From: Candidatus Omnitrophota bacterium
GTDB lineage: Bacteria; Omnitrophota; Gorgyraeia; B26-G9; JBDRCZ01
Length of the DNA stretch: 64,000 bases
Direction: 5' to 3'
Assembly (NCBI GenBank): GCA_043821285.1
Contig: JBDRCZ010000017.1
Location: 15,947 to 79,946, forward strand
In this document: positions 2 to 59,935 of the stretch, piece by piece
How the letters are laid out: each line of letters begins with the position of its first letter
Numbering within the stretch: position 1 is the stretch's first letter
The notes under the pieces: generated by a model
The model's database searches: none
What the model was told of the DNA's origin: nothing
The model's input: only the letters and a program-made list of their open reading frames with translations
Made by a program: the position numbers and the translations under genes

Positions 2-982
2 GATACCCTGAGGATACTTTCAAAAATACTTGCTCATTCACCCGTTCCCGTTGGAACCGTACCGATATACCAGTCCGCGGTAGCGATGAAACAAAAGAAA
101 AAAAAGATTATCGATATGACGGCAGAGGATATGATCGCAGCGGTAGAAACCCATGCCAAAATGGGTGTGGATTTTATGACCATTCATTGCGGTGTCATTC
201 AGGAAACAGTAGCGCGGCTTAAGGCGGAAGGCCGGATTTTAGATATTGTTAGCCGCGGCGGGTCATTTCTCCTGGAATGGATGGTCCATAACAAAAAGGA
301 AAATCCTTTCTACCGGTATTTTGATAAAATATTGCAGATTGCCAGCAGATATGACATGGTTTTAAGCTTAGGTGATGGATTAAGACCAGGGGCAATTATT
401 GATTCTACGGATCGGGCACAAATCCAGGAATTAATCATCTTGGGAGAACAGGCAAAAAAGGCGCAGGAACGCGGAATACAGGTAATTATTGAAGGTCCCG
501 GACACCTCCCGCTTTCTGATATTGAAGCGAACGTTTTGTTGGCAAAAAAGATTTGCCATGATGCACCTTTTTATGTTTTAGGACCGTTGGTTACGGATGT
601 TGCTTTAGGATACGATCATATCTGCGGAGCAATTGGGGGAGCAATTGCCGCAATGCACGGGGCAGATTTTTTATGTTACGTAACCCCATCCGAACACCTG
701 CATTTGCCAGATGCCGATGATGTAAAAGAGGGGGTAATTGCTTCACGGATTGCGGCGCATGCAGCAGATATTGCCAAGAATGTCCCTGGCGCCAAAGACT
801 GGGATTTAAAAATATCTTTAGCCCGCAGAAAGCGGGACTGGAAAACGCAGATAAAACTATCCCTTGACAAACAACGTGCAAAGAAATACCATAATAAGTC
901 TTCAGCCAGCCATACGGATGTATGTACGATGTGCGGGGAATATTGTTCGATAAAAATAGCCGAAAAGAATTTGCGGGGATAA
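2..982 (+). CDS. thiC: phosphomethylpyrimidine synthase ThiC, 3' portion (5' end upstream of window)
   Basis: Frame of ORF 86..982 is open to window start and reads ...VGTVPIYQ... (ThiC motif). C-terminal CTMCGEYCS Cys cluster typical of ThiC radical-SAM Fe-S site. Confidence 0.8.
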   Translation, partial: DTLRILSKILAHSPVPVGTVPIYQSAVAMKQKKKKIIDMTAEDMIAAVETHAKMGVDFMTIHCGVIQETVARLKAEGRILDIVSRGGSFLLEWMVHNKKENPFYRYFDKILQIASRYDMVLSLGDGLRPGAIIDSTDRAQIQELIILGEQAKKAQERGIQVIIEGPGHLPLSDIEANVLLAKKICHDAPFYVLGPLVTDVALGYDHICGAIGGAIAAMHGADFLCYVTPSEHLHLPDADDVKEGVIASRIAAHAADIAKNVPGAKDWDLKISLARRKRDWKTQIKLSLDKQRAKKYHNKSSASHTDVCTMCGEYCSIKIAEKNLRG

Positions 983-1047
983 TTCAGGGGCAGAATGCAA
1001 GCTTCCCAAGCTTGACGTCGCGGGTTCGAATCCCGTTCCCCGCTCCA
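973..1047 (+). tRNA. tRNA-Gly (anticodon CCC)
   Basis: Acceptor stem GCGGGGA/TCCCCGC, D-arm with GG, anticodon stem CAAGC/GCTTG with loop TTCCCAA (anticodon CCC), T-arm GGTTCGAATCC, 3' TCCA. Overlaps last codons of thiC ORF. Confidence 0.8.
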
Positions 1048-1121
1048 GTAAAGATAGTGTACAATGAACTATTTATAGTTTACAGCAGGAGAACCAGAAA
1101 AAATGGTTTTTAGGGAAAAAG

Positions 1122-1343
1122 ATGCCAATATATGAATTTGAATGTTTTAACTGTCATAAAGAATTTGAGCAGTTTTTTCATTCGGCAAATCAAGAGTTGA
1201 GCATACAGTGTTCTCATTGTAATTCAAGAAAAATTAAACGAATTTTTTCAATTTTTGGATTTAAATCAAAAGATAAAAGCTCTGGTAGTAATAGTTCAGG
1301 ATGCACGTCATGTACCACTGGTAATTGTAGTAGCTGTCAATAA
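1122..1343 (+). CDS. FmdB-family zinc-ribbon putative regulatory protein
   Basis: N-terminal MPIYEFECxxCxKEFE signature, two CxxC pairs, Cys/Ser-rich tail. Confidence 0.65.
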   Translation: MPIYEFECFNCHKEFEQFFHSANQELSIQCSHCNSRKIKRIFSIFGFKSKDKSSGSNSSGCTSCTTGNCSSCQ

Positions 1344-1593
1344 ATTATTGCCTTCAGCACTAATTTATTGACTACCTTTTCTTTTTCAAAGAAAAGAAAA
1401 AATAAAGTAACGGATTAACACTGATTAAACACAGACCTCGCCTATGCAGAGCTTCGGCGGGTATTTTGGGTAGTATTACTGTTAAGCAGGGGTCCATTAA
1501 AAATCCGTGCAACATCTGTGGCTAAAAAATATATGAAATTCACGCATTATTCAGAATAATCTCCTATAAAATTGTGGAAATCTGTGTATAAAT

Positions 1594-3228
1594 ATGTTTA
1601 GCGAGCCAGTTATAAAAGAAAAATTTTTCGGGCGCAAGCTGCTTCTGGACTTATTGAAAAAACGAATTGAGGCTTTTAAAAATGACTATCGCCAGAATGT
1701 TGCGCTGCTTGGACCGGAATTAATTGGTAAAACTTCCCTGGTATTAGAATTACTTAATCAACATAACGACAAGACGATTATTCCGGTTTATGTAGAGGTT
1801 AAATCAGAACCCCTGCAGTTTTTTGTGCAAAAATTCATTGGTGTCTTTTTAAACCGCTTTATCACCACGGTTGAACATCAATCTCCCGAAGATCTAAATT
1901 TGCTGATTAAAAAATGCCGCCAGCATGCCAGCAAAACTTATCTTGGAATTAAAGATGTTTTTTCCCATTTAGAAAATAATAATAATAATGAAGCCTTTGT
2001 TCGGTTACTGCAATTGCCGGTAATATTTTATGCCGAGACAAATAAACGCTGCCTGATTGCAATAGATGAGTTTCAGAATTTGGAAACTTTAAAAATCAAT
2101 AATCCATTTAAGGTCTTAAGTAATGCAATTATGATGCAAAAGACAACGATGTATATCATTACCAGCTCCTGGGAGGCAAAGGCCAGGCAAATATTGTCCG
2201 AAAAGCTTAGTCTGTTATTTGGAAATTTTGAAACCCTGCATATCACTTCATTTGATATGCCGACCAGTAAGTTTTTTTTGGATAAAAAACTTATGGATAT
2301 CGAAATGCAGGACCTGTGCAAGAAATTTTTATATAATTTAACCATGGGGAAACCATTTTATTTAGATTTGATTGTCGAACGTTTAAAACGCCTTTTTGCC
2401 GCAGATAAAACAAAAAAAATGACCAGAGAATTAATTATCGATGCATTAAATGATCTCTTGTTTGACCCGCGTGGCATATTACATCAGTACTTTGAACATC
2501 ATATCGGAACGTTTTTACAGAATCGTACGTACTGCACATTTTCTTTAATTTTAAATGCGCTTGCCGATGGACAAAAAAGGACAGCCGGTATTTCAAAATA
2601 TACCAATCGGCCGGTAAAAGACATCACACAACATCTCTCGCAATTGATCAATATGGAAATTGTTCAACGTAGCGGAAGCTTTAACCGCTTGCATGATCCG
2701 ATGTTGAAATTATGGCTGAAATATGTATATAAAACACGGCAACAGAATTATTCGACTAATCCACAGATGCTTTCTACCGCATTCAATATGGCGATTGATG
2801 ATAATTTTACCGCTTTTTGTGATACGGACCGTAAAAATTTAGGGGAAATTCTCTTGACACTTTTTGAATCTTTTGGCAATGAAATTGTAGAAATTGGCAA
2901 AAAAAGATTCAAATTGTCAAAATTTAAAAAAGTTGAATTAAAAAATCAATCGGGGTTCTGCTATATTATTGCTACTCCAGCCTCATCACAAAAACAATGG
3001 ATCTGCCTCTTGGAAAATAAACTGATTACGGAACAGGATATTATCGATTTTAGTCAATATCTGCGTAATGCTAAACTGCGCCCAATACGCAAGATTATTG
3101 TTACAATTCGCACGTTGGATGTTAATGCAAAACTGAAAGCATTAGAAGATAAGTTTATAATCTGGGAAATTGAAACTTTGAATTCGCTTTTGGATTTATA
3201 CAGCCGATGCGGCGTTGTTAGGTGGTAA
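1594..3228 (+). CDS. AAA+ ATPase (Arch_ATPase-type) with C-terminal DUF234-like region
   Basis: P-loop-like LLGPELIGKTSL, Walker B-like IAIDEFQNL, ~540 aa. Start has no obvious SD. Confidence 0.45.
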   Translation: MFSEPVIKEKFFGRKLLLDLLKKRIEAFKNDYRQNVALLGPELIGKTSLVLELLNQHNDKTIIPVYVEVKSEPLQFFVQKFIGVFLNRFITTVEHQSPEDLNLLIKKCRQHASKTYLGIKDVFSHLENNNNNEAFVRLLQLPVIFYAETNKRCLIAIDEFQNLETLKINNPFKVLSNAIMMQKTTMYIITSSWEAKARQILSEKLSLLFGNFETLHITSFDMPTSKFFLDKKLMDIEMQDLCKKFLYNLTMGKPFYLDLIVERLKRLFAADKTKKMTRELIIDALNDLLFDPRGILHQYFEHHIGTFLQNRTYCTFSLILNALADGQKRTAGISKYTNRPVKDITQHLSQLINMEIVQRSGSFNRLHDPMLKLWLKYVYKTRQQNYSTNPQMLSTAFNMAIDDNFTAFCDTDRKNLGEILLTLFESFGNEIVEIGKKRFKLSKFKKVELKNQSGFCYIIATPASSQKQWICLLENKLITEQDIIDFSQYLRNAKLRPIRKIIVTIRTLDVNAKLKALEDKFIIWEIETLNSLLDLYSRCGVVRW

Positions 3229-3229
3229 A

Positions 3230-3718
3230 ATGAAAATTGGTATTTTATCGGATACACACATACATCTGCCAAAAGATAAAATCCCGGCAGCTTTAATTGA
3301 TGGACTAAAAAACGTTGATTTAATTTTGCATGCGGGTGATATATTGGATTTGGCGGTGATTAGAAAATTAGAAAAAATTGCCCAGGTTAAAGCAGTACAG
3401 GGAAATATGGATACCCCAGTGCTTAAAGAGATATTGCCGGAGAGAGAATTAATACGCGCGGAACAGATTAAAATCGGGTTAATCCACGGCTGGGGGCCGC
3501 CGGTCGGCCTATTAGATCGGGTAAAAGAGCTGTTTTATACAATGAAGGTGGATGTAGTTATATTTGGACATTCACATACCCCGATGATAAAAAAAATAGA
3601 TGGAGTTTTGTTTATAAACCCGGGCAGCCCGACAGATAAAATTTTTGCCCCTTACAATTCATATGTTGTTTTAGAGGTCAAAGGGAATAAAGCAGAAGCG
3701 CAGATTGTTAAGATATAA
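3230..3718 (+). CDS. metallophosphoesterase, YfcE/MJ0936 family
   Basis: MKIGILSDTH, HAGDI, GNMD, GHSHTP motifs. ATG at 3230 preferred over the ORF-track alt start at 3215. Confidence 0.8.
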   Translation: MKIGILSDTHIHLPKDKIPAALIDGLKNVDLILHAGDILDLAVIRKLEKIAQVKAVQGNMDTPVLKEILPERELIRAEQIKIGLIHGWGPPVGLLDRVKELFYTMKVDVVIFGHSHTPMIKKIDGVLFINPGSPTDKIFAPYNSYVVLEVKGNKAEAQIVKI

Positions 3719-3827
3719 CAACAATTAACAGTTTACGGTTTACAGTGAGATCGTGATGCGTAACTGTTGGCCAGGCAGAAATAAGTTATAACTTATAGGT
3801 AGTGTCAAAAATAAAATGAAAAACCGG

Positions 3828-4201
3828 AAAGCAACCACAGATTACGCAGATAGTTATAAAGATTTTAAGAGGGGAGAAAATCTGTGGTGAATGGATCAGT
3901 GGTGAAAGAAAGAGAAAAAGATTTTCCATATTCAAGGAGATAATATACAAGATAATTGGTGCGGCAATGGAAGTCCACAAGTAGTTAGGATGTGGAATTC
4001 TTGAAGCAGTAGATGAAGAAGGAGTAAGTAGAGAATTTAGAAGAAAATGATTATTATTTAACATAGGTAGAGTTTCTTTAGAATATAAGAGAGTAATAAG
4101 GTAGAAAATACACTTATAACCACAGATTAAATCACCACAGATTTATACAAATAATTTAAAAGAATAAAATCATTTTAATCTGTGAAATCTGTGGTTGCTT
4201 T
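3828..4201. repeat. MITE-like ~370-bp non-coding element bounded by perfect 15-bp inverted repeats (AAAGCAACCACAGAT / ATCTGTGGTTGCTTT); internal copies of CCACAGAT
   Basis: Perfect terminal inverted repeats at 3828-3842 and 4187-4201; AT-rich interior with no credible ORF; sits in a 500-bp gap between two plus-strand genes. Confidence 0.35.
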
Positions 4202-4257
4202 AAAAGATATACGAAAGATTTTTGACAGAACCAACTTATAAACAAGGGGTAGTCGTA

Positions 4258-5079
4258 ATGAATATAAATGGTAACATCCCGGTATTTTTGGTTCAGGGTG
4301 AGACTCTCCCTGAAGTTTGGGAGCGCGCGGTTATTAAAATCTGGGAAAATGGGGTTGATATTAAAACAGAATATGATAAAAAAGACGATCCGCCAAGTAA
4401 AGATGCAACAATGACAATGGTTGTCAATCAACCTTTTTCCGAGCCAAGAATTCACCGTGCGTTTCCCGCAGGGCTGGAGGACCTTGAAATTTACAAGCAA
4501 GAGGTCGTCTATGGCGTTCATGACCATTGGATAAATCCAGAAGAAGGTAAATGGACATATACCTACCATAAACGTTTATTTGAATATGAAATCGAGCAGG
4601 AAATAATCAGACAAATAGATTATATTATTAAAAAATTATCACAAAACGGCTATTCCCGCCGTGCACAAGCAATAACATGGAATCCAAAACTTGACCCGCA
4701 GACTGATGATCCTCCGTGTCTGCAGAGAATTTGGTGCCGGCTTATGACCAATAGCGATGGAAAAAAGGTATTGAACATGAACACCCATTGGCGAAGCCGA
4801 GATGCGTATAAAGCAGCATTTATGAATATTTTTGCCTTGACGGAACTGCAGAAGCTGATTGCCGATAGAATATCCGAAATATTAAAATTCGAAGTTATTG
4901 TTGGCCGCTATGTAGATATAAGCGATAGTTTTCATATCTATGGTTCTTATTATCAGGAATTTCAGAAATTTTTAAATCTTGTTAAAAACCGAACATTTGC
5001 CGAGCGCACCTGGACGACGGAATTTGCCCAGAGTTTTTTTGACGAAGCTGACAAAAAACTACATGATCGTGCGGTGTAG
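4258..5079 (+). CDS. thymidylate synthase (ThyA) family protein, divergent
   Basis: ITWNP (cf. SAWNP), DDPPC nucleophile Cys box (PCH with H->L), HWRSRD (cf. YQRSxD), NIFALTEL (cf. NIASYALL). ATG 4258 preceded by AAGGGG. Confidence 0.5.
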   Translation: MNINGNIPVFLVQGETLPEVWERAVIKIWENGVDIKTEYDKKDDPPSKDATMTMVVNQPFSEPRIHRAFPAGLEDLEIYKQEVVYGVHDHWINPEEGKWTYTYHKRLFEYEIEQEIIRQIDYIIKKLSQNGYSRRAQAITWNPKLDPQTDDPPCLQRIWCRLMTNSDGKKVLNMNTHWRSRDAYKAAFMNIFALTELQKLIADRISEILKFEVIVGRYVDISDSFHIYGSYYQEFQKFLNLVKNRTFAERTWTTEFAQSFFDEADKKLHDRAV

Positions 5080-5289
5080 AACATCAAAAATAATAAAAAA
5101 GAAAAAGATAATGCCACAGATTTTCACTGATTGAACACGGATAAAAAACAAAAGACAAATATTAAATAAAAATCCGTGTTTCATTCGTGTGAATCCGTGG
5201 CTAAAAAAATAGTTAAACTACGCGTAACACAAATTAACACGAACAGCAAAGGCTTTATTCTTAAAAGGGTAGGTAATTTTTGACAGAAC

Positions 5290-5796
5290 TTGCTGTCACA
5301 GCGGAGAAGATACGTGGATAGGCTTTGGGCACCATGGCGGATAGCTTATGTTAACAAAAGGGTAAAGAGAAAATGCATATTTTGTATAGAAGCTAAAAAG
5401 ATAAATCTTAGAAAAAACTATATTGTTGAAACAGGCAGGTACAGTTTTGTGATTTTGAATATTTTTCCCTATAACAATGGACATTTGATGATTGTACCAT
5501 ACCGGCACTTGCCTGACGTCTCTATACTGAGAACTGAAGAGTGGAATGAAATGTTAAAATTTATTAAAATATATAAATCTTATCTCTCAAAAATACTTAA
5601 TCCCGACGGCTATAATCTGGGTATAAACATTGGACGCGCGGCTGGGGCCGGTTTTGCCAACCATGTGCATTTACATATTGTTCCGCGCTGGATCGGGGAT
5701 AGTAATTTTATGCCCGCGATAACAAAGACTAAGATAATCTCTCAGTCACTCGATGAATTGTATAAGCAGTTAAAAAAATGGCAGAAAAAGAAGTAA
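5290..5796 (+). CDS. HIT-family (histidine triad) hydrolase
   Basis: [10 protein letters not shown] histidine triad. TTG/GTG start uncertain. Confidence 0.75.
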
Positions 5797-7322: not shown

Positions 7323-7478
7323 GTAATAAAAAGTATTGCGTATCGAGCATTGCGTATTGCGTTTCTTTAAGATAAGAATTTTAATTTTTTTGCTTTTACT
7401 GTTAGCTGCTTGCCCCCAGGATAGGGGTAAACTGAACAGCATGCTCTGTACCCTTTGCTTTATGCTTTGCGTTTTATT

Positions 7479-7522
7479 CGCAATACTCAATACTCAATAC
7501 TCAATACTTAATACGCGATACG
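7479..7522. repeat. tandem heptamer array (CAATACT)n between guaA and dnaE, with inverted partial copy at 7332-7364
   Basis: CGCAATACTCAATACTCAATACTCAATACTTAATACGCGATACG; left arm GTATTGCGTATCGAGCATTGCGTATTGCG is its approximate reverse complement. Confidence 0.6.
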
Positions 7523-16263: not shown

Positions 16264-16525
16264 TACACAGATGATCAGGAATAATGCGTGAAAACACTAT
16301 TTTTAATAGCCTTTTCAGACGACAACTGTGTAAAAGTTTTTAGCAAAAGTGTAGAATTTATCGAAACTTGATTTTTTGCATGCTCTTAAATGCAAAGGCT
16401 GATGAAACAGGGAAAGATAAAGCCACGGATTAACACTGATTGCACTCGGATAAAAAAAGACGAGGCCTAAATATTAAATTCACGTATTATTCAGGATAAT
16501 CTGTGTTTTAAGTGGTTTAAAGGGC

Positions 16526-16554: not shown

Positions 16555-16738
16555 TAAAATATGAAGTATAAGTTGTAATTAAAGATTTAAAAAGTGTGTT
16601 GTATTCAAAAAAGGGGGATAAATTTCCCGTAAAAGGAACAGGGCGGATCATCAAAGAAGTGCGCGTGATATCCGCCTAACAAACTGGCGGATTAAATTCC
16701 CCGCCAAAAGACATGGCGGGTCATTTAAAGGAGGGGGA

Positions 16739-26700: not shown

Positions 26701-26970
26701 TCATGGACAATGGGTCAGGTCGGGTTCTAGTTTTAACGCTAATTCCTCGATCTTAGGAAGAATTGCATTCAAATATCCTGCTATTTCTGAGTGTTCAGCC
26801 CGGGTTATCATGATCAAGAGATTTTCCCGTGGGATAGGATTAATATTTTTAGTGTCATACGGGGGGATCAGCGGCTGAACATGGTCTATACTAAAAAAAA
26901 CACCCTGCGCCTGGGCTACCAGAGGTATAAAAACAAATACAAACAGTAATACAAGGGATATCTTTTTCAT
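26701..26970 (-). CDS. small secreted hypothetical protein
   Basis: Signal peptide LVLLFVFVFIPLVAQAQG. Confidence 0.3.
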   Translation of the reverse strand: MKKISLVLLFVFVFIPLVAQAQGVFFSIDHVQPLIPPYDTKNINPIPRENLLIMITRAEHSEIAGYLNAILPKIEELALKLEPDLTHCP

Positions 26971-27147
26971 TTTCCCCTCCTATTATTTTTTGGGGTTCTG
27001 TCAAAACTTACCTAAACTTTTAATAAGCAATGCAGATTACAAACGACTAATTATATTATATACTTATTTTCAATGGAAAGTCAAGAAAATAATGCCCTAC
27101 GTGACTTAGGAATATCAAATGTTTAATGACAAATCTCAAATGAATTT

Positions 27148-27954
27148 TTAAATAACTTCAAAGCTAAGCCCCCAGCATAGCTGGGGGCTTAGCTTTGAAG
27201 TTATTTTTTTCTTTTCCTTATCAGATATGCTATTTTCTTCAGTTATAAGTTTCAAAATTAACTGAGAGGGCTTAACGGATTGTTTTAATTTTCTTAGATC
27301 CGGCAAGTCACGTACCTTTTTATTTGTATCTACATATTTATTTTTTATTTTCATGGCAAACGCTTCATCTCCCAGAATACAGCCTTTTAACGTCAGTTTT
27401 TGCAAAGGGAATTTTTCTTTTAACATTCCTGCTGCAACAAACTGCCGATATGATTTTTTGCTCTCAAAAGAAGCCATTATGGTTTTTGTTTCCATGTAGT
27501 TAGGCAATATTTTTGAACCAACATAGTAATGATAACTGCACCAGGGATATTCATAAGGTGTATTAGATAATCCGGCAGCGACGGCGTTAAGATGTATGTA
27601 GCGTGACAGTTCATTAAGGTATGCATCTTTATCAACAACAATTGCTTTATATCTGCCTTGAAAGAGGTGTCCTACCCTCTTTTGTGCTTTATTATAATAT
27701 GTGGTGTAGCTTGAATTTATATACTGCATGCACCGGCTTAAATTAGCATATGGAGTTTCCATAAGCAAGTGATAATGATTAGGCATTAAACAATAGGCAT
27801 GAATTATAAAGCTAAAACGCAGGTATGCATTTTTAATATAAAATAAAAACTTATCTTTATCATAATCAGTAGTAAATATTTCATTTTTATCATTTCCTCT
27901 GGCACTGATATGATAAAAGGCTCCTGGATATTCAATTCTTAATGGTCTAGCCAT
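27148..27954 (-). CDS. IS200/IS605-like Y1 (HuH) transposase family protein (COG1943-type, long form)
   Basis: LMPNHYHLLM HuH motif, conserved Tyr region, 268 aa. Confidence 0.75.
   Translation of the reverse strand: MARPLRIEYPGAFYHISARGNDKNEIFTTDYDKDKFLFYIKNAYLRFSFIIHAYCLMPNHYHLLMETPYANLSRCMQYINSSYTTYYNKAQKRVGHLFQGRYKAIVVDKDAYLNELSRYIHLNAVAAGLSNTPYEYPWCSYHYYVGSKILPNYMETKTIMASFESKKSYRQFVAAGMLKEKFPLQKLTLKGCILGDEAFAMKIKNKYVDTNKKVRDLPDLRKLKQSVKPSQLILKLITEENSISDKEKKKITSKLSPQLCWGLSFEVI
27154..27202. repeat. perfect 23-bp-arm palindrome (loop ATA) at 3' end of IS200-like transposase gene, followed by T8
   Basis: AACTTCAAAGCTAAGCCCCCAGC-ATA-GCTGGGGGCTTAGCTTTGAAGTT; encodes the last residues of the transposase ORF on the minus strand. 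Confidence 0.7.
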
Positions 27955-29508: not shown

Positions 29509-29810
29509 TCCCCCCTTTGTACATGGTTTATTAGATTTTAACAGGATTAGAGGTGATTGTCAAGGATATATCGTGAAAAAGTAAGAAAAATCGTATTGTG
29601 TATTGAGTATTGTGGTTAAGAAATCTATCCACGAATGGTACAAAAAGCAGCGTTAATGACGAATGACGAAATCAGAACATTAAAATAAAAAACTCAAAAA
29701 AAGAAAATTAAATTTTAGCCACGAAATACACGAATCGCACGAAAAAAGAAAAGAGAATAAAAAGAAAAATATTTAACCACGAAGATCACGAAGTTTTTTT
29801 GTGAGAATAA

Positions 29811-29832
29811 TTTTTTGTCATAAGACAAAAAA
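29811..29832. terminator. palindromic terminator at 3' end of member A
   Basis: TTTTTTGTCATAAGACAAAAAA immediately 3' of the stop. Confidence 0.45.
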
Positions 29833-32820: not shown

Positions 32821-33140
32821 ATTACATATATGCTTTCATTCTCGTATTGAGTATCGCGTATTAATGTTTTAAATTCGAAATCCGAATATCTAAATGTTTA
32901 GAATTTGCCATTCGTCATTATAAGTGTTTTATTTTATCTATCTAGTTGATCCTGTCTAATTCGTTCTCGTATTGCGTTTTTTTATTGTCGTCTACTTGTT
33001 TTTATACTCAATACTCGATACACAATACACAATGCGTTGTTTAATCATTTCTCTCCGTGTTCTCTGCGGCTCTGTGTGATAAATTTTAGCTTTTATTTTC
33101 TGTCTTCTGAATTCTGATTTCTGTTTTCTGCTGTTAACTG

Positions 33141-36100
33141 TTAGATTGCTTGCTCTGCTATAAATATATTAGGTACTGTTATTTCTCCGGCACTTGGTAT
33201 ATCTTCAAGTAATGTGTCCGGTGCAAATACATTTTCATTAGCAGGATTGGCTCTTGTGGCTATATCTTTAGCGTTTATAACACGTTGTGAGCGTCTGTCC
33301 TTATGAGCACTAGTGTCATTCGTTTCCTTTTGTAATTTTGCAAGAAGAACCGGATTATCTTTTATTTCACGGTGATTTTTGACGTTGGGAAAAAAACCTG
33401 TTGTCAGTTTTCTTGCGGCGGTTAAATCATCAACAGTTTGAATAATCATTCCTAATTCACCATTTAAATCTTCGCTATGAACAACACCAGCTTCTAATCT
33501 TACCTGCATGCCTAATTCTGAAATCACTTCATTAACTTTGATTTCGATCGCTTTCAAAGTAGCGGCAATTTTTTCCGAAGTAATTATCCCATCATCTTCT
33601 CTATAAGCTCCTGCAAATTGATTATAAACATTGTTATTAATTGATAGAATTACATCATTTCCAACATTGTGGCCAAATACATCATTAATAACCTTAAATC
33701 CAAAATGCAATTGTGCAAATTGTGCATCTCCATTTAAGTCTGTTTCTCTGTAAAACTCTCTGTTGCCGCTTGCTCTTATGAAATCATTTATATTTATGGA
33801 TGTAGAACTAACTATATAATGTGCTGATAGTTTTATCAGTTGTACACGGTTATTTTCTCTTTTTATAACGAGGTAGAACTTATCAGGCCGTTCATGTACA
33901 ATACTGATTGAAACAGCAGATTTGCCGTCTAAAATGTTTTGAATGGTTTTGCCCAACTTATCTCTTTCTATTACCGGGTAAAACTTGTCTAAATCTTCTT
34001 TCGAAATACCCGCATCTATCATTTCCTGACGTATTCTTTCTCCTTCAACTCCTAATTGAAATTTTTTATCGTCAGCTATTTTAATCGGTGATTTTCTCTC
34101 TTCGCGCTCAGGATCTGGGCGTTCGGATAATCCTATTCCTACTAACTTGTTGGCATATTTAGTCCTGCGCTGGGTGTATTCCGCCTCATCTCTAGCAATT
34201 CTTAGTTGTTCCAATAGACTCATTTGGGAAATATTAGGTATATCACTTATTTTTACTGCTCCTACCGGGGCAAAGGGAACATAAACAGGAAAATAAATCT
34301 TACCATTAATATCAATGTCAAGACATTTAAGATTAGCGAGTATCTCGGATAGAACAGTGTTTTCATCCTCTTCTACATCTTTAGTGAACAGTATAAATGT
34401 TTCCTTAGAAGCCTTTTCTTCTTCTGGCGTTAAAAATACTGATTTTGTGACCGTAGTAATGTTTCTTTTTTTATTTTCTCTTAATTTTTCTATCAACGCA
34501 TCTCTGTTACTATCATTTATATTTTTTAGGATTGCAAAAACGTATTTTCCTTCAATCCGTTCTATGACCTTGCGTTGAATTTGTACGAGAAAGTGCTCAA
34601 TAACTTCTTTTGGCAACATAGGTGGTAACAAACCAACAACCTCATCACCACTAACATGATAAACTGTTCTACCTCTTTCTTCAATTTCTTTACGAGCTGC
34701 CTCAATTAATGTGTTAATTGCAAGTATATTCACATTTTCCCAGCCATATACATCATTTCTACCCCTTAGTTCGCTGATGTCAAAGAATATCACCCAAGCA
34801 TTGTCGTCGTGTCTACCTAAAAATACCACTGCTTCTTTTTCCCATTTTTGTGCATTTTCTGGATAGGCTTCATTAAGAAAGTTTCTTACGCGTGTTGTAT
34901 TATCAAATAAAGTGGTTAAATACATTATAAACTCTTGCAGTTCGTTATAGGGTTCGTCAGTATCTTTTCTACTTAAAAGAACATCTATCACCTTAGTAGC
35001 CGCGTCCCTAAATTGCTGATCATTAATATTTTGGTTAATAATTTTTCTCCACTTCTCACCTAAACGCTTTATTTCAGCCTTCAGAAACATTTCTATTGCT
35101 TCCTCATCTTCGCCTTGTTCTTTACACCTATCTACTTCTAATATTACTTTTTCTACATCTGCGCCCAACTCAAAAGCAAAAAATTCCCCATCTCGTTCCT
35201 GACTGGAATTTTCTCTTGGCAAAATGCTTGCCATACCTAAGCTAAATGCTGCGATTAAACCTGCGGTTCCTCCTCCCATCCCTGATTGAAGCATTGATGC
35301 TGCGGAAAATTCTGGTTGAGATGGGAAATAACCAAGTGCTCGCATTAATGTTCCAATAGATGCTGCTAAAAGCACGATGGATATTTTAGGTTTATTTCCA
35401 AACCATGCAACTAACCTCCTAATTAGCGTACCTAACCTGTTCTCATGGGAAGGACTTTTGTTTAATGCCCTCCAACCAGTTGGATGCATAAATGCTACAT
35501 TAGTTGCTTTGCGTCTACGATGAAGAAGTCCGCTTATATTTGCAGGAAATATTATTTTTCTGCTTATCCACTTTTTTACCTCATAAGCAATATATATTAA
35601 TGTTAAAATTATGCCCAAACCAGGTATTACCATACAATCGCTAATAAAATTATTCCACTGTTTAACACGAGCATAACCTTCTCTTACAGTAAAACTATCA
35701 ATAAAAAACTCTTCTCCCATCGGTGGCATGATACCAAACTTAGCAATAAAATCTGCCTGGTTTTTAAATGCTTCTGTTGTTTCTGGATTGATATCAAAAA
35801 AAGGAATAACTAATCGAGCAATGTTAAAAATCAACGTTACTGGGTTATGTTTTATAAGAAATTCCATTGGGTTTTTAGGCAAATTATCGACATGATGACT
35901 TAAACGCACTAATGTAACAGCGTATTCAAAAATTCCTCGCTTAGTAAAGAAATTTAATCCAATATTAGGATTACCCCATGTTCCATTCCATCTTGAACCA
36001 TAGACAATATCAAAATTGCTTTCACGGATAGGTGGATTATTTGTCATAAGAATTTGGTAAGTTTCGGGAGAAACTAATTTTATCAAAAATAGCGCTGGTC

Positions 36101-39581: not shown

Positions 39582-40421
39582 AAGTTAATAGCCTATCAGT
39601 TAATTCCAAATGTTCCGCCTATCAAACCGGCGGACAGGCAAATAATAAAATCCAAATGACAAATGAATCATTTAATATCTCAATCTAAAAATCAAAATGA
39701 TATATTAAAATTCAAATATTTTTCTCTTTGACAGGATTTACAGGATTAACATGATTTTTTATCCAGTTAATCCTGTCTATTTTCTTATTTTCTCTGTGAA
39801 CTTTGTGTTCTCTGTGGTTATAAATTTTTTTATTTTTTTTAATCGTAATACTCAATACATGCTACTCAATACGCATTACTTTTTATAGTGTGCTCTCTGT
39901 GGTTAAAATATTTTTTGTTTTTTTATCTACATAATCATCCGTATTCTACGCTCTCTTTTATATGCACTATTTTCATTACAATCATACATATTGTAACCGC
40001 TAATAATTACAATCTGTTAAATATATTTATAACAATTTTAATATATACAAGTAAAGTATACCATATTTTTCTGATTTTTCAAGGATTTTGCTAAAAAAAT
40101 ATAGAAAATAACAGATTAAAAGATTCAGGTGATCACGGTTTTAAAACAGTATCAAGGCATTATTTATAACTTATTTATTTATAATATATTATAAAATAAT
40201 TATCGAATATGCCTACATGTTAATTATTCGTGAAATTCGTGTAATTTGTTGTTTAAAAATAAGCAGTTAAAGTTTTTCTTTGTGTGATAAATTTTATTTT
40301 TTACCGCAGAGAAAATCTAAAAGAAATCTCGTTCACAGATGTATGTAAGTTACATCCACTTTCTATTCTTAGTGCGTTACGTAAACGGTAAACTGCCTGC
40401 CTCCCGTTAGGGAGGTAAACT

Positions 40422-47536: not shown

Positions 47537-47855
47537 ATGTTAATACCCTGTTAGTTAATTCCAAATGTTCTAATTCAAGATTTAAAAATTCCAAGATTCC
47601 AGATTCTAAAATTATAAAATTCCCCGCTACAAGGTCGAAGATCCGCCATCGTATTAGTGAAGAACGCTGGCGAACAGGCAAATTCTCTAACCTTCGGCAA
47701 GTAAAACGTTTTGAATCGTTAAATCTTAAAATATTCAAATTTTGGAATTGTTTGTTTTATTCTTCTGTCTTCTATTCTCTACCTTCTGTTTTCTGCTTTC
47801 AATCAGCTGTATCAGTAAACGGTAAACTGCCTGCCTTCCATTAGGGAGGTAAACT

Positions 47856-53553: not shown

Positions 53554-53752
53554 GATTTGTAGATATGTTTATCCATTCCAGATTTTAAAATTCCCCGCCA
53601 TAATGCGTTGACAGGCAGATTCAAAATTTAAATATTTTCTTTGAAACAAGTGTCACATGATTAATCTGATTTTTTATCCTTCTTTATCCTATTAATCCTG
53701 TCTATTTTTTCTGCTTTTTTGTCTTCCAAATTCTGACTTCTGTTTTCTATCA

Positions 53753-55231
53753 CAGTACTTTGTTAAAAATCAGGTCTTTTCAAAAAAATCATTTACGTAA
53801 GTCGTGAAAACTCATAACTTATGTAATTTCAATACTTTACGTTAATTTTTTCCTTGACAATATCCACAACTCCTGCTATGGTATATAGTTGTAATCAAAC
53901 CACCGTAACACACAACAGGAGGTGGATATGGGTATTTTTAATCTCACTATTTCGGTAATCAATAATTTCTTATTTCGTTTTAAACCTGCCTTCTCAAAAA
54001 AACAATTTATCGTTTTCTCCTTCCTGATCTATGCTTTGTTTAAAGACTACAAGAGAAATTCCCTTTATGCCCTCGCCTCTAAAACTCCAATCAACTATCA
54101 GGCTTGTCAGTACTTCTTATCTGAAGGAAAATGGAGTATCGATGATCTTAATAATATAAGGTTAAAAATTATTGAACATCAAAGAACTACTTCTGCTACT
54201 TCCTCCGGCGTCTTAGTTATTGATGATACTTCTCCTAAGCCTTTTGCTAAAGCTACCGCCGGTGCTAAACGTCAACACTGTGGTGTCTTAAATCGTGAAG
54301 AAATCTGTAATGTTGCTGTATTCTCTGCCTTCGCCTCCAAAACTAAACGCTTCCCGATAAACCTTAAATCTTATCTCCCCGCTGAAAAATTCTTATTTGG
54401 CAAAGAGGATGTAGATTTTAAAAGTAAGCTCGATCTTGCCCAAATATTAGTCGATGATGCCTTAGAAAGAAAAATTAAATTCTCTTCCCTCGTCATAGAT
54501 GCATGGTATGCTCAGTCTTCACAATTCCTTGAGTTTGTTCACTGCCAGAGAAAACTGCCCTTCATTGGTGAATTAAAGTCCAATCGTAACATCTTCTTTT
54601 ACCATCCGCTAAAGCGGAAACACTGCTGGATCCAGCAGGATGAGCTGGTGAAACTCATCAAAAAACATTATCCGCATAAGTGTAGGTTTTTTACCTCCAC
54701 GAGCAAAGATGGTAAGAAGAAGTCTTGGGTCTTCTACACCTTCAAGGGACTGCTGAAAGATTGTTCTGTTCCCTTAAGCATAGTGGTGATCTTTGGTAAG
54801 TGGGATAATCAGGATGATAAGAATGTTCATATCCTTATCTCCAATCAGACCCGCCTGGCTACTAAGACCATCATTTCCACCTACCTGCTTCGTTGGGGAA
54901 TAGAGCTTATCTTCAGGGAGCTCAAGGATGTCTTCTCCTTTGACCAATACCAGGTTAGACATACCAAACAGATCGAACGTTACTAGACACTATGCCTTAT
55001 TGCATGGAGCCTGTTATATTGGGTCAAACAAAATGCCTATCTTACCAAAATCCTTGAGCATAAACCTGCTACCTTCTATGACTACAAACAGGCCATTGAC
55101 TCCTTACTCCTTTATGATGCTCATCAGTCTCTTTCAAAGAACAGTCATCTTGCTCAGAAATATTTTAAAATTAAATCGGATAATTTTAAACAGCAAATCG
55201 CTCGCGTTGCCTGATTTTTAACAAAGTCCTG
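53753..55231 (+). mobile_element. IS4/IS701-family insertion sequence (~1.48 kb) with 22-bp imperfect TIRs and 8-bp TSD TTCTATCA
   Basis: IRL CAGTACTTTGTTAAAAATCAGG vs reverse complement of IRR (CAGGACTTTGTTAAAAATCAGG); direct repeat TTCTATCA at 53745-53752 and 55232-55239; DDE transposase ORF inside. Confidence 0.75.
53922..55221 (+). pseudogene. IS4/IS701-family DDE transposase interrupted by in-frame TAG (codon at 54984-54986)
   Basis: LVIDDTSPKP, LVIDAWYAQS, RWGIELIFRELK catalytic motifs. ORF stops 19 aa after the E motif and a conserved-looking hydrophobic tail (LCLIAWSLLYW...) continues in-frame after TAG. Confidence 0.55.
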
Positions 55232-55287
55232 TTCTATCATTTAAAACATATAGTAGACAGCAAACTGTACACTGTAAACGGTAAACT

Positions 55288-55312
55288 AAAAATTGCCGAT
55301 GGCAATTTTTTT
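55288..55312. terminator. palindromic terminator at 3' end of member E
   Basis: AAAAATTGCCGATGGCAATTTTTTT. Confidence 0.5.
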
Positions 55313-59036: not shown

Positions 59037-59935
59037 AATAAATATCTCCAGTTATTTAATTTTAAATGTCCCGCCTATCAAACCGGCGACAGGCAAATGA
59101 ATCATTAAATAATTCAATCTTTAAAATTTATTTATGTAATTTGTGTGATTTGTTGTTAATAAAATAAGTACTTGAAATCTTTCTTTGTGTGCTCCGTGTC
59201 TCTGTGTGACAAATCTAATATTTTTGTTTCGCTTGTCCGCCGTGCTCTGTTTGGCGGGTCATTCTGGTTTCGTTATTCGTTATTAAATTATCCTGTCTAT
59301 CATCCACAATGATTGGCGGATCTTCAATTTTTTATATTTTCTCTGTGAACTTTGCGAGCTCTGTGGTGATAAATTTTTTATTTTTTTTTACCGCGATACT
59401 CAATACTCATTGCTTTTTATAGTGTGCGCTCTGTGATGATAATTTTTGTTTTGTTTTTTTAGCCACAATGCTCAATACACAATACCCGATACTTAATCAT
59501 ATTACTTTTCATAATGCCTTGTTATAAATAAATTTATAACATCTTTTAAATAGTTTTATAAGTATACCATATAATTACGCAATTTTCAAGGGTTTGGGGA
59601 AATTTTTTTTGATTTTGTGATTTCTATGCTTATTGTTTTAACTATTTGGTATTAAAAAAGATATGGCATAGAAAATTAACAACAGCATTATTTAGGCAAG
59701 AATTGATTATATTTTTATTAAAGAAATAAATTGTAAGAGAAAATAATTATTACGATTAGATTTTATTGATTCTAAAATTTTAAATAAATTTTAACTTTAT
59801 TTTTCACCACAGAAAACACTGAGCCCACAAAGAAAAACTTGATACAAATCATACAAATATTTACATGCATAGCCTTCTTCCGTATAATCTGATTCTGCCT
59901 GCCTCCGGTAGGACGGTAAACAGTAAACGGTTAAC

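What the first reader, a model, noticed from the sequence alone, without database searches (positions are those of the whole stretch)
5095..5215. Dispersed intergenic repeat family: helically phased AT(C/T)CGTG units terminating in GTGGCTAAAAAA
At least five non-coding loci carry related elements: 1396-1592 (…ATCCGTGCAACATCTGTGGCTAAAAAATA), 5095-5215 (…ATCCGTGTTTCATTCGTGTGAATCCGTGGCTAAAAAAATA), 16425-16520, 29590-29830 (reverse orientation: TTCGTGCGATTCGTGTATTTCGTGGCTAAAAT, plus CCACGAA x4) and the MITE-like 3828-4201. Units recur every 10-11 bp, about one helical turn, typical of cooperative response-regulator or nucleoid-protein binding arrays. Loci 1396-1592 and 16425-16520 additionally share ACGGATTAACACTGATT and AATTCACG(C/T)ATTATTCAG(A/G)ATAATCT blocks. 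Several of these repeats occur upstream of genes (5290 HIT, 1594 ATPase, 16739 PilZ).
Basis: seen in the sequence. Interest (0 to 1): 0.55.

Follow-up and report, generated by a model that had tools for sequence, protein, structure and literature searches.

The report
Hairpin relics of a nuclease element
The repeats are real, but they are not regulator-binding sites: they are the paired three-unit end sequences, here mostly folded back as gene-less hairpins, of a small element that surrounds a tiny GxxExxY nuclease gene in many bacterial phyla and whose way of spreading is unknown.

Summary
The window (a Candidatus Omnitrophota MAG) holds 21 arrays of CRCNRA units against 6.2±2.4 in shuffles, almost all of them intergenic. 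Region 5113-5201 is a 30-nt arm, a 29-nt loop and a 30-nt arm, with RNA z-score -7.4. The "MITE-like" 3833-4196 encloses a PDDEXK_3 (GxxExxY) pseudogene.

In 72 intact GxxExxY loci from about 18 phyla, 65 have a forward array upstream, 55 have a reverse array downstream, and 53 gene-less mini-hairpins lie nearby. A profile built only from those foreign arms finds both arms of the focal hairpin (E≈0.004). Syntenic relatives have tight gene junctions without arrays, so the window copies are lineage-specific insertions.

The arms have sharp ends and no target-site duplication. They co-vary unit by unit and stay about 81% identical where synonymous sites are saturated.

Best reading: these are decayed, gene-less derivatives of a GxxExxY-nuclease element. 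Its units are probably the nuclease's binding sites; that step is inferred. Mobility is not directly shown. No description of the association was found in the held literature. The host-regulator reading is not supported.

The parts
5113..5142 (+). Focal hairpin, left arm: GCCACAGATT ttCACTGATT gaaCACGGAT (3 units, 10-11 nt period)
   Evidence: nhmmer hit with the foreign arm profile, E=0.0036
5143..5171 (.). Focal hairpin, 29-nt A-rich loop with no ORF
5172..5201 (+). Focal hairpin, right arm: ATCCGTG tttcATTCGTG tgaATCCGTGGC, followed by the tail TAAAAAAATAG (5202-5212)
   Evidence: nhmmer E=0.0045 on the minus strand; fold dG -31.1 (+) and -32.7 (-), z -7.4 and -6.7; the same tail follows a solo right arm in L152
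5226..5244 (+). Solo two-unit left-type arm AACACAAATTAACACGAAC
1409..1435 (+). Element B, degenerate left arm AACGGATTAACACTGATTAAACACAGA
   Evidence: D7; E=0.3
1503..1522 (+). Element B, right arm ATCCGTGcaacATCTGTGGC plus TAAAAAATATA; the 67-nt interior (1436-1502) is G+C-rich
   Evidence: weak fold, z -1.9
1536..1588 (+). Two further solo right-type arms (AAATTCACGCATTATTCAGAATAATCT; ATTGTGGAAATCTGTGTA) just upstream of the ATPase start codon
   Evidence: (I2)
3833..3904 (+). Element C, left arm AACCACAGATTACGCAGATA (3833-3852) with an inner right-type arm ATCTGTGGTG..ATCAGTGGTG (3880-3904). Together they form a mini-hairpin upstream of the pseudogene.
   Evidence: (E=0.0035)
3910..4116 (+). 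GxxExxY (PDDEXK_3) pseudogene. It has three in-frame stops and is truncated before the D...ExK catalytic motif.
   Evidence: frame +3781 translation; Pfam PF13366 E=5.6e-7, 30.4 bits against a cut-off of 22; homologues are 51-84% identical
4118..4196 (+). Mini-hairpin downstream of the pseudogene: AACCACAGATTaaatCACCACAGATT, a 33-nt loop, then AATCTGTGAAATCTGTGGTT
   Evidence: (E=0.0044); fold z -5.5 and -5.9. The same hairpin-gene-hairpin layout is seen in L042, L043, L051 and L066.
16265..16297 (+). Solo left-type arm ACACAGATGATCAGGAATAATGCGTGAAAACAC, an inverted copy of 1520-1562
   Evidence: (I2)
16422..16505 (+). Element E: left arm GCCACGGATTAACACTGATTGCACTCGGAT, a 24-nt loop, then the degenerate right arm AAATTCACGTATTATTCAGGATAATCTGTG
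   Evidence: D7, I20; E=0.032; fold z -2.95
29718..29793 (+). Two CACGAA-type left arms in direct order (GCCACGAAATACACGAATCGCACGAA; AACCACGAAGATCACGAAG). On the minus strand the first ends in GTGGCTAAAAT.
39790..39904 (+). Right-type arms TTCTCTGTGAACTTTGTGTTCTCTGTGGTT and GTGTGCTCTCTGTGGTT, separated by a heptamer array
   Evidence: (E=0.065)
59339..59368 (+). Right-type arm TTCTCTGTGAACTTTGCGAGCTCTGTGGTG, a paralogue of 39790-39819
   Evidence: D5, I4; E=0.045
59805..59832 (+). Left-type arm CACCACAGAAAACACTGAGCCCACAAAG
   Evidence: (I4)

Best explanation
The focal repeat and its relatives in the window are decayed, mostly gene-less derivatives of a small palindromic element. In its full form, about 410-700 bp long, this element carries one gene for a 120-aa GxxExxY (PDDEXK_3/TIGR04256) PD-(D/E)XK nuclease.

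Shown: each end of the full element is an arm of two to four (usually three) 9-11-bp units with core C-R-C-N-R-A(T). The outermost unit is marked by an extra C (CC-R-C). The two arms are inverted, so gene-less copies fold as about 65-100-nt hairpins with a one-base mismatch between units. The window copies entered intergenic spacers of this Omnitrophota lineage and then decayed; the only gene copy is a pseudogene.

Inferred: the units are binding sites for an oligomer of the element's own nuclease, which cuts at or near the sharp CC-R-C ends. This lets the gene plus its arms, and in trans the gene-less hairpins, be copied or moved without a target-site duplication, loosely as RAYT transposases do for REPINs. 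In this window the copies are most likely inert relics. I do not expect them to regulate thyA, HIT, the ATPase or the PilZ gene.
For: Identity of the window repeats:
- A PDDEXK_3 pseudogene sits between arms at 3833-4196.
Both arms of the focal hairpin score E=0.0036 and 0.0045.

Generality:
- Of 72 GxxExxY loci, 65 have a forward array upstream, 55 have a reverse array downstream, 51 have both and 71 have at least one.
- The usual form is 3 units with a period of 9 (144 cases) or 10 (61 cases).
- Bracketing inverted repeats exceed the 99th percentile of shuffles in 48 of 75 loci, and cognate arms score higher than non-cognate ones (p=9e-8).
- There are 53 gene-less mini-hairpins in the same 80 loci.
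- Arm-derived peptides (PQITQI, SADYAD and the like) occur in 29 of 150 diverse family representatives.

Coherent element:
- The ends are sharp. Position -1 is C in 95% of terminal units, whereas A (57%) predominates there in inner units, and nothing is conserved outside position -3.
- Mirror units of the two arms co-vary (89 matches against 58 expected), while the spacer base does not (38-42% match).
- Unit type tracks protein subfamily (permutation p<0.001).

Selection:
- In six orthologous Pyrinomonadaceae loci, dS is saturated and dN/dS is at most 0.08.
- The left arms there stay about 81% identical, and one species has a compensatory CGCCGAT/ATCGGCG change.

Nuclease:
- D64, E74 and K76 are invariant.

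Insertion:
- The syntenic relatives L086, L127, L141 and L154 have MPE-thyA and thyA-HIT junctions from overlapping to about 110 nt, without arrays. The window has 503 and about 235 nt.
- Nested or truncated copies occur (L001-L004, L009), as do tandem hairpins (L041).
Against: - No intact GxxExxY gene lies in the window, and the rest of the genome could not be fetched.
- Mobility is not shown directly. Identical proteins looked up on several contigs always sat in the same context.
- There is no target-site duplication.
- The syntenic 'empty' sites come from distant relatives; the thyA-like protein is only 64-69% identical in them.
- The Pyrinomonadaceae element has stayed at one site across a family, which fits domestication as well as selfishness.
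- The family is rare on plasmids (8 of 72,556 records), has only one weak hit to a phage protein family of unknown function, and is absent from the defence libraries.
- Window termini read GCCAC or ACCAC, not the common ATCC-R-C.
- Binding of the nuclease to the units is pure inference. Arm co-variation could equally reflect pairing in RNA or single-stranded DNA.
Confidence: 0.6

Rival explanations
1. The arms work at the RNA level, like the intervening sequences of 23S rRNA. In a transcript they pair into a long interrupted stem that RNase III or a similar enzyme cuts, or that stabilises or terminates the message. The gene-less hairpins are kept because they serve the host as processing or stability elements between genes.
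For: The focal hairpin folds strongly (z -7.4). Mirror units co-vary, with one compensatory pair in orthologues. At unit position 1, G·U-type mismatches outnumber A·C-type 43 to 21. The layout (about 30-nt inverted ends and one small ORF, 410-700 nt in all) resembles the 428-444-nt Coxiella IVS with its 28-bp stem (PMC4990558). All four GTGGCTAAAA-type ends point the same way as the flanking genes.
Against: Pooled mismatches show no strand bias: G·U 64 against A·C 49, and position 4 goes the other way. The hairpin folds equally well on either strand. A mismatch every 9-10 nt makes a poor RNase III substrate. Core sequences are conserved across phyla far beyond what pairing alone needs. There is no Rfam match. 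None of the 80 loci lies in rRNA. Syntenic relatives lack the hairpins.
Confidence: 0.15
2. The arms are operators and a terminator for the GxxExxY gene itself. The protein, or a host factor, binds three sites upstream to autoregulate, and the inverted copy downstream stops transcription. The family grows by ordinary duplication and horizontal transfer, not by an element-specific mobility reaction. Solo arms and hairpins are deletion debris.
For: The upstream arm ends a median of 50 nt before the conserved domain, and the stop codon often overlaps the first downstream unit. The element is retained at one site for a long time with strong purifying selection. No target-site duplication and no identical copies in different contexts were found.
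Against: It does not explain 53 gene-less hairpins and tandem hairpin arrays next to genes. It also does not explain the sharp conserved termini, the nested truncated copies that each begin exactly at ATCC, or the hairpins inserted between unrelated housekeeping genes in the window.
Confidence: 0.12
3. They are REP/REPIN-type or MITE-type repeats mobilised by a different enzyme, either a RAYT/HUH transposase or a DDE transposase such as the DDE_5 gene at 53922-54986. The link to GxxExxY would then be incidental insertion preference.
For: The copies are dispersed, intergenic and hairpin-forming, like REPINs (PMC3116915). A DDE_5 transposase is present in the window.
Against: The gene bracketed by the arms is PDDEXK_3 in 65-71 of 72 loci across phyla, and unit type co-varies with that protein. 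There is no target-site duplication. No CRCNRA arrays flank the DDE_5 gene.
Confidence: 0.06
4. The helically phased units are cooperative binding arrays for a host response regulator or nucleoid protein that controls the downstream genes (HIT, ATPase, PilZ).
For: There are three sites per arm about one helical turn apart. Several copies lie upstream of genes.
Against: The copies are absent from the same junctions in syntenic relatives. The same units flank nuclease genes in unrelated phyla. Copies also lie downstream of genes and between convergent or giant genes. The shared promoter-like 12-mer lies outside the element.
Confidence: 0.04

Closest known systems
REPIN-RAYT systems (REP doublets forming hairpins, copied by a REP-associated tyrosine transposase; PMC3116915, PMC3337134)
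   Same: Short intergenic hairpin-forming repeats are dispersed in the genome. The same repeats flank the gene of the presumed mobilising enzyme. There is long vertical persistence, and gene-less copies far outnumber genes.
   Different: Here the flanked gene is a PD-(D/E)XK nuclease, not a Y1/HUH transposase. The arms are arrays of three 9-11-bp units rather than one REP palindrome. GxxExxY genes are multi-copy and often pseudogenised, whereas RAYTs are typically single-copy. No activity has been shown.
ORF-bearing intervening sequences of 23S rRNA (Leptospira, Coxiella; S23p four-helix-bundle ORF; PMC4990558)
   Same: Both are about 430-700 nt long, with terminal inverted repeats of about 28-30 nt around one small ORF of unknown function. 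Both show patchy distribution suggesting horizontal transfer, ORF decay, and an unknown mobility mechanism.
   Different: These elements are not in rRNA. The ORF family differs (PDDEXK_3, not PF05635). The stem is interrupted every 9-10 nt. RNase III processing is untested.
MITEs (miniature inverted-repeat transposable elements derived from DDE insertion sequences)
   Same: Both are gene-less, short, bounded by inverted repeats, lie in intergenic DNA, and are related to a longer gene-carrying form.
   Different: There is no target-site duplication and no DDE transposase. The ends are built from tandem units.
STRR heptamer repeats of heterocystous cyanobacteria (Mazel et al. 1990, from my own knowledge; mentioned in PMC2670836)
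   Same: Both are tandem 7-nt units in intergenic DNA with unknown function. The window also holds heptamer arrays (7333-7361/7479-7521), one of which begins with the same AGCCAC end (59461-59492).
   Different: STRRs are described as simple tandem arrays. A link to GxxExxY or to inverted pairing was not tested here.
Transposon ends with several transposase-binding sites (Tn7, Mu; general knowledge)
   Same: Both have several phased binding sites in each inverted end, and the outermost site is distinct.
   Different: Those sites are about 22 bp and bind DDE transposases, and their transposition makes target-site duplications. The analogy concerns architecture only.

Membership tests
GxxExxY (PDDEXK_3)-associated inverted-array element (defined here from L001-L080) | Arm of at least 2-3 units with core C-R-C-N-R-A at a 9-11 nt period | tested here: met
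   Window arms at 5113-5142, 5172-5201, 3833-3852, 4118-4196, 16422-16451, 29718-29743 and others; the reference set is.
GxxExxY (PDDEXK_3)-associated inverted-array element (defined here from L001-L080) | Outermost unit preceded by C (CC-R-C), giving a sharp end | tested here: met
   The window has GCCAC or ACCAC at every outer end. In the reference set position -1 is C in 95%. The usual A-T at positions -3/-2 is replaced by W-G/A, so this is a variant.
GxxExxY (PDDEXK_3)-associated inverted-array element (defined here from L001-L080) | Inverted partner arm, either 15-90 nt away (mini-hairpin) or across a PDDEXK_3 ORF | tested here: met
   The focal loop is 29 nt, 4118-4196 has a 33-nt loop, and 3833...4196 spans the pseudogene.
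GxxExxY (PDDEXK_3)-associated inverted-array element (defined here from L001-L080) | Significant match to a profile built from arms of unrelated genomes | tested here: met
   nhmmer E=0.0035-0.0045 for four arms and 0.03-0.07 for four more. All nine best hits are intergenic arms.
GxxExxY (PDDEXK_3)-associated inverted-array element (defined here from L001-L080) | Intact nuclease gene (D...ExK) between the arms | tested here: not met
   The focal element has no ORF. The only gene copy (3910-4116) has 3 stops and lacks the D64/E74/K76 region. The window copies are therefore derivatives, not autonomous members.
REP/REPIN-RAYT | Repeats flank a Y1/HUH (RAYT) transposase gene | tested here: not met
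   The flanked gene is PDDEXK_3/TIGR04256 in the reference loci. The window ORFs scanned gave no such family, but not every small ORF was scanned.
MITE / DDE insertion-sequence derivative | Target-site duplication at both ends | tested here: not met
   In 51 bracketed elements, direct-repeat lengths at the ends match the random expectation. The A-rich flanks of the window hairpins are ambiguous.
23S rRNA intervening sequence | Located inside a 23S rRNA helix and excised by RNase III | tested here: not met
   There is no rRNA in the window. No conserved 23S motifs occur in any of the 80 loci. Cleavage cannot be tested here.
Response-regulator / iteron-type binding array | Sites conserved at the orthologous promoter in relatives | tested here: not met
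   L086, L127, L141 and L154 keep the gene order but have no arrays and only short junctions (overlapping to about 110 nt).
Intrinsic terminator | Short-loop G+C-rich hairpin followed by a U-run on the transcribed strand | tested here: not met
   The loop is 29 nt. On the + strand (the gene strand) the hairpin is followed by UAAAAAAA. The scanner reported nothing here. A U-rich run follows only on the minus strand.
Known RNA families (Rfam 15) | Covariance-model match | tested here: not met
   Only tRNA-Gly was found, both at gathering threshold over the whole window and at E<=1 over 900-5400.

The most novel reading that the evidence does not exclude
GxxExxY genes with their three-unit inverted arms, together with the swarm of gene-less hairpins, form an unrecognised class of selfish element driven by a minimal PD-(D/E)XK nuclease. 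It would be a REPIN-like system with a different enzyme and no target-site duplication. The family is present in about 18 phyla and has more than 12,000 protein clusters at 50% identity. Under this reading, many 'hypothetical' intergenic hairpins and odd N-terminal peptides (PQITQI, SADYAD) in metagenomes are its footprints.
Probability: 0.3. Interest if true: 0.8.

Novelty: new variant of a known kind. Interest (0 to 1): 0.6.

Why it matters
GxxExxY/PDDEXK_3 is a very large protein family: 12,374 clusters at 50% identity have E<=0.001. Its function is listed as unknown (PMC3424549), and I found almost no literature on it.

Nearly every gene copy is wrapped in the same sharply bounded, unit-built inverted arms, and gene-less hairpins of the same kind litter intergenic DNA. 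This gives the family a testable role as the enzyme of a hairpin element.

It also explains a common class of metagenome artefacts, namely arm-encoded peptides fused to ORFs and short broken contigs. Finally, it warns annotators not to read these periodic arrays as promoters or regulator sites. For this window in particular, it removes a supposed regulatory feature from four gene neighbourhoods.

Tried and rejected
- **Fetching the source genome.** Exact-protein look-ups for the source genome or sister strains failed. The only 100% match is one Omnitrophota MAG protein, and the next relatives are about 73% identical. No close empty-site test was therefore possible.
- **Identical proteins in different contexts.** Looking for identical GxxExxY proteins in different genomic contexts gave only the same context in different samples. 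Apparent differences were gene-calling artefacts (P0028, P0036, P0042, P0399, P0343).
- **Database searches.** The PDB sequence search gave nothing. The Rfam scans found only the tRNA-Gly gene. PADLOC found nothing, and PHROGs gave one weak hit of unknown function. The plasmid search gave 8 records, mostly megaplasmids.
- **Target-site duplication.** The test was negative.
- **Strand bias of G·U against A·C mismatches.** The result was inconclusive.
- **Literature.** Searches for the arm sequence, GxxExxY, PDDEXK_3, TIGR04256 and PF13366 found no description of the association.
- **Rejected ideas.** CRISPR-like array: the L041 'spacers' are identical, so it is a tandem duplication. Intrinsic terminator: rejected.

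Full report
**1. The observation**

- GTGGCTAAAAA occurs exactly three times (1518+, 5197+, 59456-) against 0.06 expected, and a fourth copy (29712-) differs by one base.
- The looser terminus TGTGGYTRWWA occurs 7 times against 0.82 expected.
- I defined a unit as C-R-C-N-R-A and an array as at least two units 7-13 nt apart. The window then holds 21 arrays against 6.2±2.4 (maximum 13) in 200 shuffles. Nearly all lie in the 8.8 kb of intergenic DNA.
- The copies align beyond the core (family D7, 63-82% over 56 nt; I2; I20).

**2.

The units are arranged as inverted arms.
- The focal element consists of three parts:
  - a left arm, GCCACAGATTttCACTGATTgaaCACGGAT (5113-5142);
  - a 29-nt A-rich loop;
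  - a right arm, ATCCGTGtttcATTCGTGtgaATCCGTGGC (5172-5201).
- It folds at -31 to -33 kcal/mol on either strand, with z -7.4 and -6.7, and has a single mismatch between units.
- The same layout occurs at 4118-4196 (z -5.5 and -5.9), 16422-16505 (z -2.95 on the + strand only) and, more weakly, 1409-1522.
- At 29718-29793 two CACGAA-type arms lie in direct order.

The "MITE-like" stretch 3833-4196 has three parts: a mini-hairpin, a frame-disrupted ORF, and a second mini-hairpin. The ORF translation KEIIYKIIGAAMEVHK*LGCGILEAV.. matches Pfam PDDEXK_3 (PF13366, E=5.6e-7, above the curated cut-off).

**3. Evidence from elsewhere**

Homologues of the pseudogene are GxxExxY proteins. Several of them carry odd terminal peptides such as SADYADF or NLRNLRNLW.

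A scan of one genome per species returned at least 575 loci, of which the best 80 were kept. By their record titles they come from about 18 phylum-level groups. Reading the flanks shows the same picture almost everywhere: ATCC-R-CAGATTACGCAGATT.. upstream and ..AATCTGCGTAATCTG-Y-GGAT downstream.

Quantified on the 72 loci with enough flank:
- 65 have a forward array upstream, 55 have a reverse array downstream, 51 have both and 71 have at least one.
- Three units is the usual number, with a period of 9 (144 cases) or 10 (61 cases).

Further measures:
- Bracketing inverted repeats beat the 99th percentile of shuffles in 48 of 75 loci, and cognate arms match better than non-cognate ones (p=9e-8).
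- The outermost unit is distinct. Position -1 is C in 95% of terminal units, whereas A (57%) predominates there in inner units, and conservation stops at position -3.
- Full elements are 411-705 bp long, median about 508, and show no target-site duplication beyond chance.
- The same 80 loci hold 269 arrays of at least 3 units and 53 gene-less mini-hairpins with loops of 6-89 nt. Some are tandem (L041, L066).
- Some genes are flanked by a complete hairpin on each side (L042, L043, L051, L066), as is the window pseudogene.

A profile HMM made only from these foreign arms finds the window arms as its nine best hits. Four have E≈0.004, including both arms of the focal hairpin. I therefore regard the identity of the window repeats as settled.

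**4. Gene and arms form one evolving unit**

- Variable positions agree between mirror units of the two arms far more than expected (for example 89 against 58). The one-base spacer does not (38-42% match).
- Unit type (xGAT against xAAx) follows protein subfamily (permutation p<0.001).
- Six Pyrinomonadaceae species carry the element at the same site, and there the host gene even reads into the left arm. Synonymous sites are saturated, dN/dS is at most 0.08, and the left arms remain about 81% identical. One species has the double change CGCCGAT/ATCGGCG.

Both the protein and the arms are thus under constraint in gene-carrying copies.

**5. The window copies are insertions, not ancestral regulatory DNA**

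The window comes from a Candidatus Omnitrophota MAG. Four metagenomic relatives keep the order metallophosphoesterase - thyA-like - HIT. Their junctions range from overlapping to about 110 nt and carry no arrays. The window has 503 nt (the pseudogene element) and about 235 nt (the focal hairpin).

Across 630 kb of related loci, arrays are at background density (0.21 per kb). One relative does carry a solo right arm ending GTGGCTAAtaaaaaaatag, matching the window tail.

A 12-mer, TTTTGACAGAAC, lies 25-40 nt upstream of three start codons and outside the hairpin. It is a better promoter candidate than the repeats.

**6. Mechanism**

Shown:
- The architecture and the sharp ends.
- Co-variation of the arms, and constraint on gene and arms.
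- Lineage-specific presence.
- Nested truncated copies that each restart exactly at ATCC (L001-L004, L009), and tandem amplification.

Inferred:
- The nuclease binds the three phased units.
- It acts at the ends.
- It moves or copies the element, and it acts in trans on the hairpins.

Against mobility:
- Identical proteins found on several contigs were always in the same context.
- The family is rare on plasmids.
- It has only one weak phage-family hit and no match in the defence libraries.
- The Pyrinomonadaceae copy is old and stable.

On the RNA rival, pooled mismatch types show no clear strand bias (G·U 64 against A·C 49). Position 1 alone is biased 43:21. An RNA-level role like that of rRNA intervening sequences (PMC4990558) therefore remains a live rival.

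**7. Comparison with known systems**

The nearest analogues are REPIN-RAYT systems (PMC3116915, PMC3337134), ORF-bearing 23S rRNA intervening sequences (PMC4990558) and MITEs. Membership in each fails on a defining feature: enzyme family, location in rRNA, and target-site duplication respectively.

Searches of the held literature for GxxExxY, PDDEXK_3, PF13366, TIGR04256 and the arm sequence found no description of the association. The one survey that lists the family gives its function as unknown.

**8. Verdict**

The finding is real. Its regulatory interpretation is not supported.

In this window it is a set of decayed relics, so their local biological importance is probably nil. The wider pattern they reveal is a very large nuclease family with 12,374 clusters at 50% identity. 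Its genes are consistently wrapped in unit-built inverted arms, with gene-less hairpin satellites. That pattern appears undescribed and is directly testable.

Scores:
- Interest: 0.6.
- Novelty: new variant of a known kind.
- Confidence that the repeats are arms of this element family: about 0.85.
- Confidence in the full statement, including the selfish-element reading: 0.6.
- Confidence in the inferred step that the nuclease binds the units: about 0.35.

Noticed in passing
window 7333-7361 and 7479-7521: Inverted arms built from 7-nt units (GTATTGNG / CNCAATAC) bracket a 117-nt non-coding interior between guaA and the next gene. RNA dG is -51.7 and z is -3.7, with A-rich flanks on both sides. 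The same heptamers occur at about 29593-29617, 32843-32866, 33004-33035, 39848-39880, 59396-59420 and 59461-59492. The last copy begins TTTTTTAGCCAC, the same terminus as the CACNGAT arms, so these may belong to the same superfamily.
   Followed up: partly
window 33098-33142, 47750-47802, 53700-53756; 39731-39760, 53650-53680; 3733-3750, 40381-40393, 47815-47827, 55276-55288, 59912-59930: There are further short-unit arrays of other types (TTCTG units, CAGGATT units, GTAAACGGTAAAC units), chained in the spacers between the giant genes. Similar heptamer arrays, some as inverted pairs, occur in unrelated genomes (TTGGACA in L023/L032, GAAGTCA in L004). The cargo gene, if any, is unknown.
   Followed up: no
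window 29833-63891 (minus strand): Six very large ORFs (995, 2146, 2363, 1891, 1241 and 1310 aa) lie in a row. Five share a 175-nt block at the 5' end (D1). Four are followed by a hairpin AAAAAATTGCCnnnGGCAATTTTTT (D4), which looks like a terminator. The 2146-aa protein has no Pfam match, and the 1241-aa one has a methyltransferase domain.
   Followed up: partly
window 53922-54986 (+): A DDE_5 / DDE_Tnp_1 transposase ORF (E=6e-22) lies between two giant genes. It is an ordinary insertion sequence and is not flanked by CRCNRA arrays.
   Followed up: partly
window 4220-4231, 5278-5289, 26995-27006 (minus): The exact 12-mer TTTTGACAGAAC (contains TTGACA) lies 25-40 nt upstream of three start codons: thyA-like, HIT, and the minus-strand ORF ending at 26970. 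Only 2 of 100 shuffles reach 3 matches even with one mismatch allowed. It is a possible promoter or leader motif of this organism.
   Followed up: partly
window 27150-27206: A perfect 27-nt inverted repeat with a 3-nt loop (AAATAACTTCAAAGCTAAGCCCCCAGC / GCTGGGGGCTTAGCTTTGAAGTTATTT) overlaps the 3' end of the minus-strand ORF 27148-27954 (I8).
   Followed up: no
window 16600-16738: The G-rich leader upstream of the PilZ-domain gene has repeated GGCGG(A/G)T and CCGCC blocks that could pair. No Rfam family matched at the gathering threshold.
   Followed up: no
L161-L170 (e.g. L167 1900-2691); L009; L182-L186: In Desulfobacterales-type contigs the right arm abuts the start of a Bac_transf sugar-transferase gene. 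In L161-L170 the right arm plus 115 nt of that gene's 5' end is duplicated on both sides of a GxxExxY pseudogene element. This hints at co-duplication of flanking DNA or recombination between arms.
   Followed up: partly
L041 2558-2900; L066 2447-2844: Four tandem copies of a mini-hairpin plus a constant 21-nt linker (86-nt period) run directly into the left arm of a GxxExxY gene that lacks a right arm. L066 has a similar 110-nt tandem.
   Followed up: partly
L017, L023, L029, L032, L048, L052 (Pyrinomonadaceae): The element sits at one orthologous site. The upstream host ORF runs into the left arm and ends inside it (…STDYADYTD*), so the arm supplies the host gene's C-terminus and stop codon.
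   Followed up: partly
L180 2880-2965 (Desulfosarcina sp. BuS5), L008, L003: The left arm is split by a small G+C-rich hairpin insert (ACCCCG...CGGGGCAGG) between units 1 and 2. The window's element B likewise has a G+C-rich 67-nt interior (1436-1502).
   Followed up: no
L152 5740-5880; L156 175-215: Another widespread hairpin type (CCCCCTTTGAAAAAGGGGG... GGGGGATTTAAA) lies next to the arms in Omnitrophota-related contigs.
   Followed up: no
protein database: Most close GxxExxY hits are truncated fragments of 40-100 aa on contigs of 0.5-5 kb. Thousands of 122-aa proteins 75-83% identical to each other each form their own 90% cluster. This pattern is expected for a multi-copy, decaying repeat that breaks assemblies.
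   Followed up: no
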